From assembly GCF_048403405.1 (NCBI RefSeq), contig NZ_CP183131.1: a stretch of DNA of 64,000 nt. The stretch is one strand, 5' to 3'. Every line of letters begins with the position of its first letter. The first letter of the stretch is position 1. This stretch comes from Escherichia coli (GTDB lineage Bacteria > Pseudomonadota > Gammaproteobacteria > Enterobacterales > Enterobacteriaceae). The position numbers are program-made. Below, piece by piece: positions 3,001-9,000 of this stretch.

Positions 3001-6000
3001 TCCAGTTCCCGGTGCCACTCCGTCATTTGCTTGGCCGCAGGTTTTACCACCAGCTCGTTTTTGTTTTCTGCCAAGATGATGTCTTCCTCGTCAATATTGC
3101 ATTCGTCTATCGCTTCCGAACGGATGGATACCGCTTCATCCCAGTCATCGCTCGATCCGAAAATGCTCCAACCCTCAAGACCGTAATTCACCCATACGAT
3201 GAACCGCTTTATCGTTTTCATGTGCGGCCCCCTTTAACCGTGCAACGTTCCCACATACTCACCCCTTCAAACCGTAACCCCACCAAAAAGCCACTTCTTG
3301 ATGATTTCCAATCAGCAGCGGCAGGTTGCCCCTGAACTAACCTCACCGAAAAACCACCTTTAGATTGCTTTCTGGTGCTTATCAAGTTCTCCTGAGTGAT
3401 TAGTCGTTCTGAAAACTTTACTTTTCACAGTATCATTTTATAATACTGTAAATCATAAAAACAACCCAGTAAAGAAAAAAGAGCGACTTATGTTGAGACG
3501 AGAAAACCAAGGAGATTTGTTCGATGACCAGGTGGTGTTGCCATCACTGGAGTCGGTTCTTACCGGCATATCTTCCAGTCAGCGTTGTGACGATAGAACA
3601 ACGTACTTCTCCGCTCCGGATGTGGACCTGAGTTTGTACGATCACATCATTGTTTGCCTGTCTGGAGGCAAAGACTCGATTGCTGCGTACTTGCGGCTGG
3701 TGGACATGGGTGTTGATAAGTCAAAGGTGGAGTTCTGGCACCATGATGTTGATGGTCAGGAAGGCAGTTCGTTGATGGATTGGGCCTTCATGCGTGATTA
3801 CTGTCGTCAGCTCGGGGAAGAACTGGGTATCCCAATGTACTTCTCGTGGCTTGAGGGCGGCTTTGAGGGCAAAATGCTCAAAGACAATGCCTATAGCCAC
3901 CCCCATCGTGTAGAGACGCCTGAGGGGCTTCTGGTGCTGCCTAGAGACCATAAGCGCTCTAAGCCTGGTACGCGCCTTCGTTTCCCTCAGCAATCGCCAT
4001 CACTCCAAACAAGGTGGTGCTCATCAGCCTTGAAGATCGATGTTGGCCGCAGAGCTCTTAATAACCAGGAGCGCTTCAAGGGGAAGAAGATCCTTTTCAT
4101 CACTGGTGAGCGCCGGGAGGAAAGTGCAAACAGATCCAAGTACAACCAGCTTGAGGCTCATGCCTGTGACAGAAGATATGGGAAGACTGCACGGTTAGTT
4201 GATGCCTGGAGGCCCGTTCTTCATTGGACTGAGGAGGAGGTATGGGAAGTAATCGAGCGTCACCGCATCCTGGCCCCAGTCCCTTATCGCCTTGGCTGGA
4301 GCCGGTCGTCGTGTATGACCTGCATCTACAACTCACAGCGTATCTGGTCCACGATCCGTCACTACTGGCCTGAACGAGCTGGGAAAATTGCTCAGTATGA
4401 ACAAACCTTTGGTGTGACGGTATCAAGAAAAAAAATCGACGTAATAGATTTAGGTTCTGCTGTTGCGCCGATACAGATTAGTGATGTTGAGGCATTGGAG
4501 CAGGTATCCAGAGAAGATTACACGCTCCCGATTTTTGTGCCGGAGGGGCAGAAGTGGGTTCTCCCTGGTGGCGCATTTGGCCGAGAGGCCTGTGGTTCTG
4601 ATTGATTTGTGCAGAGGTGGCAATGTTGGATTTTGTTTTTTTGGTGTTTTTGGGGTTGGGCATATCTACGGTGCTGGTGCGTCGGTCTTCCCGTAAGGGG
4701 ATGGATCTTGAGCTGACATGGCTCCAGTCGTTGAAGGTCGTGCTGGTTCGTGGAGCTGTTGCATTGGGCCTGGGTTTTGGCATTGGCAGGCTTGTATTGA
4801 TGGGGATGCAGTATGGTTTCCTGAGTGAGTCTGTCCTGAGGGAACATGCACTTGTCTCCGTAGCGGTGGTTCTGATCTGTGGGCTTGGTTCGTTCGTTGC
4901 GTTTCAGTGGATCATCGGGAGGATCTCTGGAAGATCGATCAGCGTCGTTTCTGTGATCAAAGCTGTGATGTACGAGTCTGGTTACTTTGTGCTGTCGATG
5001 CTTATCTTGTTGGTGATACTCGTCCTGTTCGGCCTTGCATACGAGACTTTTTTCTAAAAAAACAGTGTTGATTATTTTTTGTTCAGTGATCAAAAGGATA
5101 AATATAAAGATCTTTAGATCTTTGTATAAAGGATTAAAAACGGTTAAAGACAGGTTAGGCGTTCTAAATCACCACTCAACACATTGATATTACTGGTGTT
5201 TTCATATTTATTCCGTGCAACAAACCCATAGGTTGCCGTGCAGCGTTCCCATAGGTTGCCGTGCAACGTCCCCACATACCCTTGGATCTTATCCACTGTT
5301 ATCCACACGGAACCCCTCTTTTTTCCACAAAATCCTTACAAAACAGAGCTTTCGTGCAGCGTTCCCACATATCAGATCTGGTGTTCGTGCAGTATTCCCA
5401 CATGTCTAAGGTCATACGTGCAGTCGCCCCATATACAATTTTCTGAACGTGCAACGTACCCACATGTCAATTTTGGTCGTTTTTTGCACCGTGCAGCGTA
5501 CCCACATATGATCGTGCAGCGTTCCCATATACCAAAACCCCGTTTATGCACAGGAAATGTGGATAACTTTTGGCCTCTTTTTGTGTGCGCGTGATCACTT
5601 TATGGACTATTAGAGTCATTTTGACTGCTTTTTTAGGTTTGTCCTGATCTGTCAATCTTTGTTCTGCTTCGTCAATCGTGCAGAGTTCCCATATATCGAG
5701 AGGTTCAGGACCTGCTTTCGTGCAACGTACCCACATATCAAATCTCATAACGTGCAGGTCCCCCACATCCTCACCCTTTAACTATCAATACCTTACGGGA
5801 ACCACTCTACGGGAACCACTGGAGCAGCATGGCACTTATCCTTCGTCGTGGCTTACGCTTGCACGATACTGAGACTCAGCTTGCGACTACCGTGCAGCGA
5901 TCCCATATATAGAGCCCCAGCCCACGCTGCATCTGGGGTCACGTTCGCTCTATCCGTGCAGCTCCCCCATATGCGGAGGCATTCCGTTTCCGGTCCTGCC

Positions 6001-9000
6001 TGGTGGGCGTACCTTGTGCGCTTTCTTCTGGCATAAAAAAAGGCGCTGACGCGCCTATCTTTCTTTTCCCTGGGGGGTGGGAGATTCTGGTGGCTATCTC
6101 CCCTTACGTTGGGGTTCATCAATGATGTCGTGGTCGATCATGCCGTGCTTGATGGCCCGTAGCTCTGTCTGCTGCTTACGCTTGTTGGACGCCATCACCT
6201 GCTTCACGAAGTTCTCATGAGGCCTTATGACGTACCGCACGTCGATGACTCTGCGGCCATCCTTGATCTGGTTCGCGTCGTAGTCGCTTATGACCTCTTG
6301 TTTGATGAGGGCCTCCAGAGCGAGCTTCATGGCTCTGACGTTCTCCGGCATCCGTGGGCTCAATTCACGAGGGCTCTGGGTCAGGAAGCTGATAAGCGAT
6401 GGCGTGTACGGCGAATCTGGTGATGCTTGAGTCCAGTAGTGGCTCATTCGCTTGTAGATGTACCGTGCAAGAGGGGAGCGGATTTGCATTCCGATTTTGT
6501 AGTTGTACTGACGAAACGACAGATTCATGATCGATTCGTTTACCAGCGGGTTGAACTGCACATAGCACCTGGCGTTCCCGCCTTTCTTGCGAAACTCACC
6601 TCTGGTGGTCAGTCCCACCATCGGGAAGAAGCTGGAGCTGATGAAGGCTTCACCGTCATCACTGATACATTCGAGTGTTGCGCCACGACAAACCTGGATT
6701 GCTTCCTTGATTTCGTTCAGGTTGTACCCGTGACCCATCTTCGAGAGCTCTTTCTGGAGTTCGTACAGAGTGAACATGACTCCAGCCTTGCCCTCGATGA
6801 TATGGCCTTTCCCGTTCACTGCGAGCTTGCGTAGAGCATCCTCAAGGATTTCCTCTCGCTGTCCCGCGTAGATCAGCACGGTTCTTCCGTCATCCTTCTC
6901 GATGATGGCTGGCTTCACCTTCACCGTGAAATGCTGGCCTCTGATGGTGCATTGTCGTGTCACTACAGCGTTGGATAAATCTTCATGCTCACGCTTTTGG
7001 TCCCAAATGTACTTCGGCAGCGCATCGTAGATCTCGATGGTGTTGGAGTAGTCGTCTTTCTTGGCCGGAGATTCAATGATCTCAAACAGGCTCATTTGCG
7101 GTGAGTCTTTGATTACGTCGAGTTTCTCCAGGTCTTTGTCTTTGGTTCTCTTGCTCATGATTGTTCCGTCGATACTTTCTAGCTGGTGGTCCATGCCGCC
7201 AGCATTGTCAATGCTCCCGCTGCTACCGTCGCTGAAAACACTAGCTGGTAGATGCGACGCTTAGCCCCCGCAGTGCCGCTCATAAAACGCAGGGCTGCCG
7301 CTTCATATCGGAAATGAGCGAACTCACCCCGAAGGGTGCTATCTGTCCCCTGTGGCGATTGTGGGCGCTTTGACAGGGCAGGGCGAGGATGGCTGGCGAC
7401 TTTCTTGATCATCGCTTCACATTTCCCCAGTTTCGCCAATTCAGTGGCCGCTACAGATGCTGTCATGTTGTCACACCTCGTCGCTATGTGTCTTGTTTAG
7501 CTGGCGCTCGTACTCGTTTAGCGCCCGGCGAATTTTTGCTAAGGCAGTGGCGCGTTGTCTTAACACGGCATACCTGGTTTCAACTTGCTGGATCAACTCT
7601 TGTGCCCAGACAGGCTCTTTCTTGAAGTGCGACATGCTGTAGGCATGACCGCGACCCTTCTTGATATGTGTCGATAGAACCCTTTTCTTTTGTCCGGGAA
7701 CTTGTTCGACAAATCTGTTGCGATACCACTCTGCAACGAGTGATACGCCTAGAATGCGAACCCGTGTACCGACACGCCCTTGTTCGTCCTCTGACGCTTC
7801 TTCACGCGCTGATTTGTGCGCGTTCCAGTACATGTCCGCTTCCTGCTGCGCCTCGACAGCAAGAACCGCTAAGGCGTGATCCAGTTTGCTCCGTACCTCT
7901 GCAACAAACTCTCGTCCCTCTGCCTCTAGCAGATCCTCTGTTATCTCGGATCGTTCTTCTTCGAGCTTCGGATCTAGCAGATCTAGCCATCGCTCTGTTG
8001 GTAGACTCACCTCAATACCCTCCCAATTCCTATCCAATTCCTATCCACATAACTATCTATCTGGAATTTAAAGCTGATTATTCCAATACTGGAATCTAGT
8101 TCTGTCACTAGGCTAACCCATCTTTGGAATTTGTCAAATTTCCCTCTATCTATCTGGAATCTTGATGCTCTTATTCTTTCACAGCCTCTTTACATATGAA
8201 TCTATATTTAAAGATTCCAGATATATTGGATATGGCATCAAAGATTCCAAATGCCTCTTTACCACCGTCTCTCGATGCTGGAGGGCAAGCGGTTCTCGAT
8301 GCGAGGGTAAGGTCTGTTTATCTGAGCCTATCCGTGCAGCGTTCCCATAGGTTCCCTTACTCAACGATCAAAAAGCCACCGAAAAGCAACCTATATGCCC
8401 CTTTTGGGCAATTACACAGGCCATCTGTCCCCGCTTTTAGCCTTATTCTCTATCCAACACGCGGCAAGCAATCGAAAAGCAATCTAAAAGCAATCTTTGG
8501 AGGATTTCATGAGTCAATTTGTTCTGGGTTTGGATATTGGTTACTCCAACCTGAAAATGGCAATGGGGTATAAAGGTGAGGAAGCTCGCACAGTCGTCAT
8601 GCCGGTGGGGGCAGGTCCATTGGAACTGATGCCACAACAGTTAACTGGCGGTGCAGGGACCTGCATTCAGGTTGTGATTGATGGAGAGAAATGGGTTGCA
8701 GGCGTCGAGCCTGACCGATTGCAAGGATGGGAGCGTGAGCTTCACGGCGACTATCCTTCGACCAATCCATACAAGGCTCTTTTCTACGCTGCACTCCTGA
8801 TGTCCGAGCAGAAGGAGATCGATGTGCTGGTGACTGGCCTGCCTGTTAGTCAGTACATGGACGTAGAGCGCAGAGAGGCGTTGAAATCTCGGCTTGAGGG
8901 TGAACACCAGATCACGCCAAAACGATCGGTAGCGGTTAAGTCTGTCGTGGTTGTACCTCAACCTGCCGGTGCTTACATGGATGTTGTAAGTTCAACCAAA

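What the first reader, a model, noticed from the sequence alone, without database searches (positions are those of the whole stretch)
5214..8360. Iteron origin with a stray iteron copy 2.4 kb away between repA and parM
At least 14 iterons (CGTGCAGCGTTCCCACATAT consensus) with interspersed DnaA boxes lie directly 3' of repA. A further near-perfect iteron (CCGTGCAGCGTTCCCATAGGTTCCC, ~8333-8357) sits on the far side of repA within the parM upstream region. An isolated iteron there could titrate RepA or couple replication control to partition-gene expression.
Basis: partly seen in the sequence, partly recalled or inferred. Interest (0 to 1): 0.4.

Follow-up and report, generated by a model that had tools for sequence, protein, structure and literature searches.

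The report
IncC plasmid origin with outlying iterons
This is the already known replication origin of an IncC multidrug-resistance plasmid, but it carries three extra, evolutionarily conserved copies of the initiator-binding repeat 1-2.4 kb outside the origin (not one, as first reported). I found no description of them, and they most likely fine-tune replication rather than being needed for it.

Summary
Window 5000-8600 is 100% identical to hundreds of IncC (A/C2) plasmids. [quoted passage not shown]

The isolated iteron at 8333-8352 is real (17 core matches in 64 kb, 0.01 expected). A complete 148-kb IncC plasmid holds exactly 14 + 3 copies.

The 8333 copy lies between oriT and the AcaCD-dependent parM promoter, at about -104 to -123 from its start site. 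It sits 16 bp before parC-like 11-mers.

- IncA, Shewanella and Photorhabdus relatives keep it despite diverged flanks.
- Edwardsiella and more distant relatives lack it.
- The 3239 copy is kept even in Edwardsiella.

A published pVCR94 deletion, which I mapped to 8129-8472, removes the 8333 iteron without loss of viability, stability or transfer. The predicted RepA fold matches RctB, RepE and pi.

Best reading: these are auxiliary RepA sites acting by pairing or titration, as in P1, RK2 and Vibrio chromosome 2. Direct control of parM is less likely. The origin is known; the outliers are a new member of a known kind. Interest is modest.

The parts
5214..5974 (+). Iteron array of IncC oriV: 14 direct copies of CGTGCA-N5-CCCAYAKRY. 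Spacings are 23, 23, 93, 33, 31, 31, 42, 23, 164, 42, 32, 140 and 64 bp.
   Evidence: The consensus equals the published IncC iteron (PMC7433901).
5299..5307 (+). Perfect DnaA box TTATCCACA. One-mismatch boxes lie at 5289 and 5321.
5558..5566 (-). Perfect DnaA box TTATCCACA. A one-mismatch box lies at 5544 (+).
5040..5213 (.). A+T-rich flank of the array (71% A+T) with GATC-containing short repeats. It is a candidate unwinding region.
   Evidence: The role as unwinding element is inferred.
6041..6056 (-). Terminator-like hairpin after repA.
6094..7194 (-). repA(A/C) initiator, 366 aa. The predicted fold resembles the RctB/RepE/pi winged-helix initiators.
   Evidence: No Pfam, NCBIfam or PDB sequence hit.
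7179..7466 (-). orf002 (vcrx002), function unknown. It overlaps the repA start.
7471..8010 (-). mobI, a relaxosome accessory gene.
   Evidence: Pfam MobI, 4e-31; annotation.
8010..8194 (.). oriT (R55 positions 139-323), overlapping the mobI promoters. The -35 box TTGACA is the reverse complement of 8133-8138 and the start site is near 8103.
   Evidence: PMC5587640. Coordinates were mapped through peH4H numbering.
8333..8352 (+). It has the same orientation as the array, lies 2.36 kb from it, and sits at about -104 to -123 from the P152 start site.
   Evidence: Conservation footprint.
8369..8390 (+). Two 11-bp repeats, CAAAAAGCCAC and CGAAAAGCAAC. These form the candidate upstream half of parC.
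   Evidence: The analogy is to SrpR sites in SXT (PMC4489591). ParR binding is inferred.
8392..8420 (+). AcaCD box of promoter P152. The start site is at 8455-8457.
   Evidence: Table S3 of PMC4207636, mapped through the parM start codon.
8462..8494 (+). Three 11-bp repeats, CGGCAAGCAAT, CGAAAAGCAAT and CTAAAAGCAAT, in the parM 5' UTR. These form the candidate downstream half of parC.
8509..9492 (+). parM/stbA (vcrx152), an actin-like partition ATPase.
   Evidence: Pfam ALP_N, 2e-33.
9509..9802 (+). 97-aa ORF (vcrx151), a candidate ParR/SrpR-type adaptor.
   Evidence: Position downstream of parM. No family hit. The role is inferred from PMC4489591.
3239..3258 (+). Outlying iteron 2: CGTGCAACGTTCCCACATAC. 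It has the same orientation as the array, lies 2.0 kb beyond its far end, and ends 16 nt before the vcrx009 start codon (3221, - strand), next to its Shine-Dalgarno sequence.
   Evidence: It is conserved 21-22 of 22 in IncA, Shewanella, Photorhabdus and Edwardsiella.
3284..3294 (+). The second and only other copy of the 11-mer CAAAAAGCCAC, 25 bp after outlying iteron 2. A related CGAAAAACCAC lies at 3347-3357.
   Evidence: exactly two copies in 148 kb.
4174..4193 (-). Outlying iteron 3: CGTGCAGTCTTCCCATATCT. It is inverted relative to the array, lies 1.0 kb beyond it, and sits inside the PAPS-reductase-like ORF 3490-4605.
   Evidence: It is kept in IncA, Shewanella and Photorhabdus. Edwardsiella has inverted copies at the equivalent place without that ORF.

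Best explanation
The region is the IncC (A/C2) basic replicon: repA, then a 14-iteron oriV with DnaA boxes and an A+T-rich flank. Three extra iterons lie 1.0, 2.0 and 2.4 kb outside the array, and together they bracket the block oriV-repA-orf002-mobI-oriT. I read them as auxiliary RepA-binding sites. RepA bound to them would pair with RepA on the array, either as a loop in cis or as handcuffing between sister plasmids, and would hold a little initiator away from the origin. The expected effect is to damp initiation and perhaps transcription of the enclosed repA operon. They are not needed for replication itself. What is shown: the sites exist, match the array at every invariant position, are the only such sites on the plasmid, are under purifying selection, and one of them can be deleted without loss of viability. 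What is inferred: RepA binds them, pairing occurs, and copy number is affected.
For: - **Sequence.** All three outliers keep CGTGCA-N5-CCCAYA, at 24-29 bits on the uniform-background matrix and 19.6-26.6 bits on the window-background matrix. No other site occurs in 148 kb, where 0.065 are expected by chance, and all lie within 2.4 kb of the array.
- **Selection on the parM-side copy.** Against IncC, Photorhabdus khanii is identical at 18 of 22 positions. All 4 changes fall at low-information iteron positions, while the flanks are identical at 15 of 34 and 8 of 20.
- **Selection on the vcrx009-side copy.** It is identical at 21 of 22 positions in Edwardsiella, while the flanks are identical at 9 of 15 and 60 of 122.
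- **Co-variation.** In Halomonadaceae plasmids (RepA 52% identical) the array iteron has changed to GGTGGGAATGTTGCACAG, and the outliers there follow that version.
- **A family trait.** Several RepA/C-type replicons on unrelated backbones, though not all, have same-orientation outliers beyond the array and upstream of repA.
- **The initiator.** The predicted RepA fold matches RctB domains 2-3 (E 4e-8), RepE54 (E about 1e-5) and pi (E 1e-3). All three pair their binding sites (review PMC6090056).
- **Dispensability.** oriT subclones lacking the site are fully mobilisable. The delta-oriT2 deletion of pVCR94 deltaX, which I mapped to 8129-8472, is viable and stable.
Against: - There is no binding, copy-number or incompatibility measurement for any outlier.
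- A single iteron against an array of 14 can hold only a small share of RepA, so titration alone would be weak.
- The parM-side copy is missing in Edwardsiella (RepA 92% identical) and in the more distant A/C-like plasmids that keep the same gene order. It is therefore not a fixed part of the control circuit.
- The conserved island around 8333 also includes about 28 bp upstream in IncA, so part of the conservation may belong to another element.
- Conservation of the copy inside the ORF cannot be separated from coding constraint between IncA and IncC (1 change in 20 nt against 9% background divergence).
Confidence: 0.5

Rival explanations
1. The outliers are local operators. RepA bound at 8333 and 3239 would tune the neighbouring operons, parM-parR and vcrx009 onward. 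It might do so together with the protein that binds the adjacent 11-bp parC-like repeats, which would link replication status to partition.
For: Both intergenic outliers lie in promoter or leader regions of operons that point away from the replicon. The 3239 copy ends 16 nt before the vcrx009 start codon, next to its Shine-Dalgarno sequence. Each is followed within 16-25 bp by the 11-mer CAAAAAGCCAC, which occurs only at these two places in 148 kb. The same repeat family flanks P152 as parC repeats flank the R1 promoter (own knowledge) and lies in the 5' UTR as SrpR sites do in SXT. In Halomonadaceae relatives, outliers lie inside parB/korB and upstream of kfrA. On Vibrio chromosome 2, ParB2 modulates RctB sites.
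Against: The 8333 copy is at about -104 to -123, beyond the class-II AcaCD box, and about 195 bp from the -35 box of PmobI. P152 is silent without AcaCD and is switched on by AcaCD alone in plasmid-free cells. No promoter was found for vcrx009 near the site. Removing the whole P152 region had no reported effect on stability. The parMRC locus was not among the non-mutable maintenance loci (PMC10954446).
Confidence: 0.2
2. The outliers are neutral relics. They would be left-overs of array expansion, local duplication or recombination, carried along with conserved neighbours and without present function.
For: The 8333 copy is identical over 22 nt to the array copy at 5236-5257 and shares the 5' flank CTATCC with the repA-proximal copy at 5955, as a recombination product might. 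The two intergenic outliers with their 11-mers could be an old duplication of about 55 bp. The site is absent from several relatives. No phenotype was reported for delta-oriT2.
Against: The substitution pattern is that of a constrained binding site, not of drifting DNA. All invariant positions are kept in five lineages while both flanks diverge to 40-50% identity. The chance of 21 or more of 22 identities at 50% background is about 5e-6. Outliers also recur, and co-vary with the array sequence, in replicons on unrelated backbones.
Confidence: 0.15
3. The outliers mark R6K-type remote origins. RepA on the array would loop to a lone iteron kilobases away and activate initiation there, as the pi protein does between the gamma iterons and the single or half iteron of ori-alpha and ori-beta in R6K (own knowledge).
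For: The geometry is alike: lone iterons on both sides of the array at 2.0-2.4 kb. The predicted RepA fold resembles pi. The 8333 copy lies 140 bp from the A+T-rich oriT segment, which holds an invariant DnaA-box-like CTATCCACA at 8041.
Against: The array itself has everything an origin needs: DnaA boxes and an A+T-rich flank. The A+T-rich DNA near 8333 is explained by oriT. No DnaA box or A+T-rich tract lies next to 3239. I found no report of multiple IncC origins.
Confidence: 0.07

Closest known systems
IncA/IncC (RepA/C) oriV as described for RA1 and IncC plasmids (Llanes 1996 and Harmer & Hall 2015, as cited in PMC7433901)
   Same: The DNA is identical: 100% to hundreds of IncC plasmids. 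It has 14 copies of the published 19-bp iteron downstream of repA, and DnaA boxes.
   Different: The published description I could read speaks of 11-14 iterons and a single DnaA box in the origin. It does not mention the three outlying copies, or the second perfect DnaA box.
Plasmid P1 incA/incC and F incB/incC: iteron sets on both sides of the rep gene, one of them regulatory (own knowledge)
   Same: Initiator sites lie on both sides of rep. Those outside the minimal origin are dispensable for replication. The expected action is initiator-mediated looping or handcuffing and sequestration.
   Different: P1 incA has nine clustered iterons next to repA. Here there are single sites 1-2.4 kb away, separated from repA by mobI and oriT. 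No copy-number data exist.
RK2 oriV extra iterons: a cluster of three, a lone one and an inverted tenth (own knowledge)
   Same: A mixture of lone direct and inverted iterons lies outside the minimal five-iteron origin and contributes to negative control.
   Different: The RK2 extras lie within a few hundred bp of the origin. The initiator TrfA is encoded elsewhere on the plasmid.
Vibrio cholerae chromosome 2: RctB iterons and 39-mers in ori2-inc, remote titrating iterons, ParB2/parS2 interplay (PMC6090056)
   Same: RctB domains 2-3 are the closest structural match of the predicted RepA fold. Regulatory initiator sites lie outside the minimal origin, including distant ones. There is a documented link between a partition protein and initiator sites.
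   Different: No 39-mer-type second motif was found here. The partition system next to the site is type II (ParM), not ParAB. The scale is kilobases, not tens of kilobases.
R6K gamma enhancer with lone iteron at ori-alpha and half iteron at ori-beta (own knowledge)
   Same: An iteron array has single iterons kilobases away on both sides, and the initiator has a related fold.
   Different: In R6K the lone sites mark real initiation sites. There is no evidence for that here.

Membership tests
IncC (A/C2) replicon | repA and oriV nearly identical to reference IncC plasmids | tested here: met
   Window 5000-8600 is 100% identical over its full length to many plasmids typed IncC. RepA is 100% identical.
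Iteron-type theta replicon | Multiple direct repeats of about 17-22 bp next to the rep gene | tested here: met
   14 copies within 760 bp, 120 bp downstream of repA; 0.01 expected by chance.
Iteron-type theta replicon | DnaA box(es) and an A+T-rich unwinding region beside the iterons | tested here: met
   Two perfect and three one-mismatch DnaA boxes lie inside the array, and 5040-5213 is 71% A+T. That this tract is the unwinding element is inferred.
Iteron-type theta replicon | Initiator with the tandem winged-helix fold of RepE/pi/RctB | tested here: met
   AF2 model (mean pLDDT 64, pTM 0.59). Foldseek hits: RctB domains 2-3 at E 4e-8, RepE54 at about 1e-5, pi at 1e-3. Model confidence is moderate. 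There is no sequence-level family hit.
Iteron-type theta replicon | The initiator binds the iterons | not testable with these tools
   Needs EMSA, footprinting or ChIP.
Auxiliary (regulatory) iterons, as in P1 incA, RK2 extras and V. cholerae ori2-inc | Same recognition sequence as the origin iterons | tested here: met
   All invariant positions are kept, at 24-29 bits on the uniform-background matrix and 19.6-26.6 bits on the window-background matrix. In distant relatives the outliers follow their own array's consensus.
Auxiliary (regulatory) iterons | Located outside the origin and dispensable for replication | tested here: met
   For the 8333 copy only: the published delta-oriT2 primers map to a deletion of 8129-8472, and that plasmid is viable and stable. 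This was not examined for 3239 or 4174.
Auxiliary (regulatory) iterons | Removal raises copy number, and extra copies lower it or cause incompatibility | not testable with these tools
   I found no copy-number measurement in the papers I could read.
Rep autoregulatory operator | Iteron-like site, often inverted, overlapping the promoter of the rep operon | tested here: not met
   The lone iteron is about 195 bp beyond the -35 box of the mapped PmobI. No iteron-like site above 11 bits lies between repA and mobI. A repA-proximal promoter has not been mapped.
R6K-type remote origin | Lone iteron with its own initiation zone, activated by looping to the array | tested here: inconclusive
   The lone-iteron geometry is met. 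A+T-rich DNA and a DnaA-like box near 8333 are accounted for by oriT, and there are none near 3239.
Type II parMRC centromere (parC) | Short direct repeats flanking or overlapping the parM promoter, bound by ParR | tested here: inconclusive
   Two plus three 11-bp repeats flank the AcaCD box and start site with 11-bp spacing. Binding was not tested. SrpR binding to analogous 5'-UTR repeats is shown for SXT/R391.

The most novel reading that the evidence does not exclude
The two intergenic outliers are each followed by the same parC-type 11-mer, which occurs nowhere else on the plasmid. They may be composite RepA-plus-ParR landing pads that bracket oriV-repA-oriT. Through RepA pairing they would tie the origin array to the ParMRC segregation complex. 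Alternatively, ParR occupancy would release RepA handcuffs, as ParB2 does for RctB on Vibrio chromosome 2. Either way, replication licensing and type II partition would be mechanically coupled in a major resistance plasmid family.
Probability: 0.1. Interest if true: 0.65.

Novelty: new member of a known kind. Interest (0 to 1): 0.35.

Why it matters
IncC plasmids are among the main carriers of carbapenemase and cephalosporinase genes, and they help mobilise SGI1-type islands. Yet their copy-number control has hardly been studied. If the three outlying iterons set copy number or link replication to partition, they are part of what makes these plasmids stable in many hosts, and they would be cheap targets for curing or incompatibility-based displacement. 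They also offer a simple case (single sites, a known initiator fold, mutants already in freezers) for asking how lone iterons at a distance work. The effect may well be small, and the general principle of auxiliary iterons is already established.

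Tried and rejected
- **RepA family searches.** Pfam, NCBIfam and PDB sequence searches of RepA gave nothing. A fold prediction was needed instead.
- **Literature.** Five full-text searches for any description of a lone A/C iteron found none. One of them was swamped by unrelated 'RA1' papers. Hancock 2017 (TraDIS) is not held. I did not attempt Harmer & Hall 2015 or Llanes 1996, which I know only as cited in PMC7433901. Prior mention therefore cannot be excluded.
- **Autoregulatory operator.** The idea that the 8333 site is the repA or mobI operator was rejected on distance from the mapped promoter.
- **Part of oriT.** Rejected, because subclones lacking the site transfer at full rate.
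- **AcaCD link for the 3239 copy.** Rejected: Table S3 lists no AcaCD site near it.
- **Intermediate RepA relatives.** A tblastn with the Pseudoalteromonas RepA, meant to reach the 60-80% identity group, only returned IncC again. The genome-contig scan served that purpose instead.
- **Minimal IncC replicon.** The coordinates of pMSZ1248 are not given in the text, so it could not be used as a dispensability test.
- **IncC parS sites.** Their sequences are not in the text, so their positions relative to the outliers were not checked.
- **Shared 12-mer.** AAAAGCCACCGA is shared between the IncC site and a Halomonas parB-internal outlier. It is not kept in the Modicisalibacter relative, so I treat it as probable coincidence.

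Full report
**What is there**

The window from 5000 to 8600 is 100% identical over its whole length to hundreds of plasmids typed IncC, from Klebsiella, Salmonella, E. coli, Vibrio, Proteus and others.

On the + strand the order of features is as follows:

| Feature | Coordinates (strand) |
|---|---|
| PAPS-reductase-like ORF (vcrx007) | 3490-4605 (+) |
| Small ORF (vcrx006) | to 5057 |
| A+T-rich tract | 5040-5213 |
| Iteron field | 5214-5974 |
| repA | 6094-7194 (-) |
| orf002 | 7179-7466 (-) |
| mobI | 7471-8010 (-) |
| 498-bp spacer | 8011-8508 |
| parM/stbA | 8509-9492 (+) |
| 97-aa ORF | 9509-9802 (+) |
| H-NS-like acr2 | follows the 97-aa ORF |

So repA and parM are not neighbours. mobI and the origin of transfer lie between them.

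The core pattern CGTGCA-N5-CCCAYA occurs 17 times in 64 kb, where 0.01 is expected.

- Fourteen copies, all on the + strand, form the array at 5214-5974.
- Two perfect and three one-mismatch DnaA boxes lie among them, and the far flank is 71% A+T.
- The consensus is the reverse complement of the published 19-bp IncC iteron. The literature I could read gives 11-14 iterons for IncA/IncC origins (PMC7433901).

This part of the finding is the known IncC oriV.

**The stray copy is real, and it is one of three**

The copy at 8333-8352 scores 25.6 bits on a matrix built from the array, whose own copies score 15.8-29.0. It equals the array copy at 5236-5257 over 22 nt.

- 3239-3258 (+), 26.6 bits.
- 4174-4193 (-), 19.6 bits, inside the vcrx007 ORF.

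On a complete 148,105-bp IncC plasmid (peH4H) there are exactly 14 + 3 copies. The next best score anywhere is 13 bits, and shuffled sequence gives 0.065 hits above 19 bits. All three outliers lie within 2.4 kb of the array, and together they bracket the block oriV-repA-orf002-mobI-oriT.

**Where the 8333 copy sits**

I mapped published coordinates onto the window.

- oriT (R55 positions 139-323) is window 8010-8194. Its core holds the mobI promoters: the -35 box TTGACA is the reverse complement of 8133-8138, and the start site is near 8103 (PMC5587640).
- The AcaCD box of promoter P152 is 8392-8420 and its start site is 8455-8457 (Table S3 of PMC4207636).
- The iteron is therefore at about -104 to -123 from the parM start site, upstream of a class-II activator box, and about 195 bp beyond the -35 box of PmobI.
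- Sixteen bp after the iteron come two 11-bp repeats, CAAAAAGCCAC and CGAAAAGCAAC. Three more (CGGCAAGCAAT, CGAAAAGCAAT, CTAAAAGCAAT) fill the parM 5' UTR.

Repeats that flank the promoter with 11-bp spacing are the layout of parC in plasmid R1 (own knowledge). In SXT/R391 the homologous SrpR protein binds repeats in the srpM 5' UTR (PMC4489591). These repeats are therefore the likely centromere, although binding is untested.

The exact 11-mer CAAAAAGCCAC occurs only twice in 148 kb. The second copy lies 25 bp after the outlier at 3239.

**Conservation**

The IncA plasmid pIB2020_IncA is only 79% identical in the parM-mobI spacer, yet it keeps all three outliers at the same places and in the same orientations. 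Plasmid contigs from Shewanella profunda and Photorhabdus khanii each show the same 14 + 3 pattern.

For the parM-side copy in Photorhabdus, compared with IncC:
- The iteron is identical at 18 of 22 positions.
- All four changes fall at low-information iteron positions.
- The flanks are identical at 15 of 34 and 8 of 20 positions.

The 3239 copy is identical at 21-22 of 22 positions in all of these, and also in Edwardsiella. There the flanks are identical at 9 of 15 and 60 of 122 positions. The chance of that is about 5e-6 at 50% background identity.

By contrast, several relatives lack the parM-side copy although they keep the gene order parM-oriT-mobI-orf002-repA-array:
- Edwardsiella plasmids (RepA 92% identical).
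- Pseudoalteromonas, Alcanivorax and Marinomonas plasmids, and a Rhodospirillaceae MAG (RepA 53-58% identical).

The intragenic copy has one change between IncA and IncC against 9% background divergence, so it is not informative by itself. However, Edwardsiella lacks that ORF and still has inverted iterons at the equivalent place.

**A family trait**

Halomonadaceae plasmids have RepA 52-54% identical on unrelated backbones. Their array iteron has changed to GGTGGGAATGTTGCACAG.

- Two or three same-orientation outliers with that changed sequence lie about 1.9 kb past the array, between an ardC-like gene and kfrA.
- In four of the loci (L015, L017, L024, L026) another outlier lies inside the 3' part of a korB/parB gene.
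- An enterobacterial MAG without mobI or parM has a lone copy about 590 bp upstream of repA.

Outlying iterons that follow the local array sequence therefore recur in several, though not all, RepA/C-type replicons.

**The initiator**

RepA(A/C) has no Pfam, NCBIfam or PDB sequence match. An AlphaFold model built from 11 homologues has moderate confidence (pLDDT 64, pTM 0.59). Its best structural matches are RctB domains 2-3 (E 4e-8), RepE54 of F (E about 1e-5) and pi of R6K (E 1e-3). These are the classical iteron-binding initiators that pair their sites.

**Published genetics that bear on function**

- oriT subclones that start at R55 position 97 or 139 lack the iteron and transfer at the full rate.
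- The primers for two pVCR94 deltaX deletions match the window exactly. Delta-oriT1 removes 8129-8295 and keeps the iteron. Delta-oriT2 removes 8129-8472, which includes the iteron, the AcaCD box and the start site.
- Both mutants are viable and both show the same 10-fold drop in transfer. The authors state that the deletion did not significantly alter stability or transfer. Copy number was not measured.
- P152 is off without AcaCD and is switched on by AcaCD alone in plasmid-free cells.

**Interpretation**

The best-supported reading is that the outliers are auxiliary RepA sites acting through initiator-mediated pairing with the array, plus some sequestration. This is the role of P1 incA and the extra RK2 iterons (own knowledge) and of the ori2-inc and remote iterons of Vibrio chromosome 2 (PMC6090056). 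I give this 0.5.

It explains the exact match to the array, the co-variation, the clustering near the origin, the selection and the dispensability. It does not explain why the parM-side copy is missing in close relatives, and a single site can hold only a little RepA.

The rivals are:
- **A local operator role that couples replication to partition (0.2).** It is favoured by the promoter and leader positions and the shared 11-mer. It is weakened by the distance from both promoters and by the AcaCD-only activation of P152.
- **A neutral relic (0.15).** It is contradicted by the substitution pattern.
- **R6K-like remote origins (0.07).** There is no positive evidence beyond the geometry.

**Novelty**

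The origin itself is already known. I found no description of the outliers in the papers I could search. Key subscription papers were not available, so an earlier mention cannot be excluded. Auxiliary iterons are a known kind of element, and these would be new members of it in a clinically important plasmid family.

Noticed in passing
window 8332/8333: Some IncC GenBank records, such as peH4H (NC_012690) and two others listed, start their numbering at the base next to the lone iteron. The iteron therefore forms the last 20 bases of these circular records and is easy to overlook in linear maps.
   Followed up: partly
window 3284-3294 and 8369-8379: The 11-mer CAAAAAGCCAC occurs exactly twice in the 148-kb plasmid, each time 16-25 bp after an intergenic outlying iteron. 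It belongs to the same family as the parC-like repeats around the parM promoter. Related copies lie at 3347-3357, 8380-8390 and 8462-8494.
   Followed up: partly
window 8041-8049: A DnaA-box-like CTATCCACA lies inside the oriT core. Its last seven bases, ATCCACA, are unchanged in five of the six lineages aligned; Edwardsiella has TTCCACA.
   Followed up: no
L017:1726, L015:4583, L024:1732, L026:397: Halomonadaceae plasmids with a RepA/C-type initiator carry an iteron-like site inside the 3' part of their korB/parB gene. In two of them it is followed by AAAAGCCACCGA, a 12-mer also found next to the IncC lone iteron. This is probably coincidence.
   Followed up: partly
L016:11876 and 11968 (also L015, L017, L026): Two or three outlying iterons lie about 1.9 kb past the array, between an ArdC-like gene and a KfrA-family gene.
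   Followed up: partly
L004:9678-9776: The Edwardsiella A/C-like plasmid has 19 array iterons and three inverted iteron-like copies spaced 49 bp apart, in DNA with no annotated gene.
   Followed up: no
window 5014-5565: The primer table of PMC3915882 lists oligonucleotides whose homology arms (window 5014-5049 and 5530-5565) would delete 5050-5529, that is nine of the 14 iterons. It also lists a cloning primer that is itself an iteron. No result for these constructs is reported in the paper.
   Followed up: no
window 24160-31724 and 35028-36073: Past about 22.6 kb the IncC backbone is interrupted by a resistance region with three IS26 copies (24160-24979, 27588-28407, 30905-31724) and an ISEcp1 copy. 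The break lies at the end of the plasmid's Tus-like terminus-binding protein gene, as annotated in peH4H.
   Followed up: no
window 6097-7194 (-): RepA(A/C) has no Pfam or NCBIfam model and no PDB sequence match, although the RefSeq annotation calls it 'RepB family'. Only the predicted fold links it to RctB, RepE and pi.
   Followed up: yes
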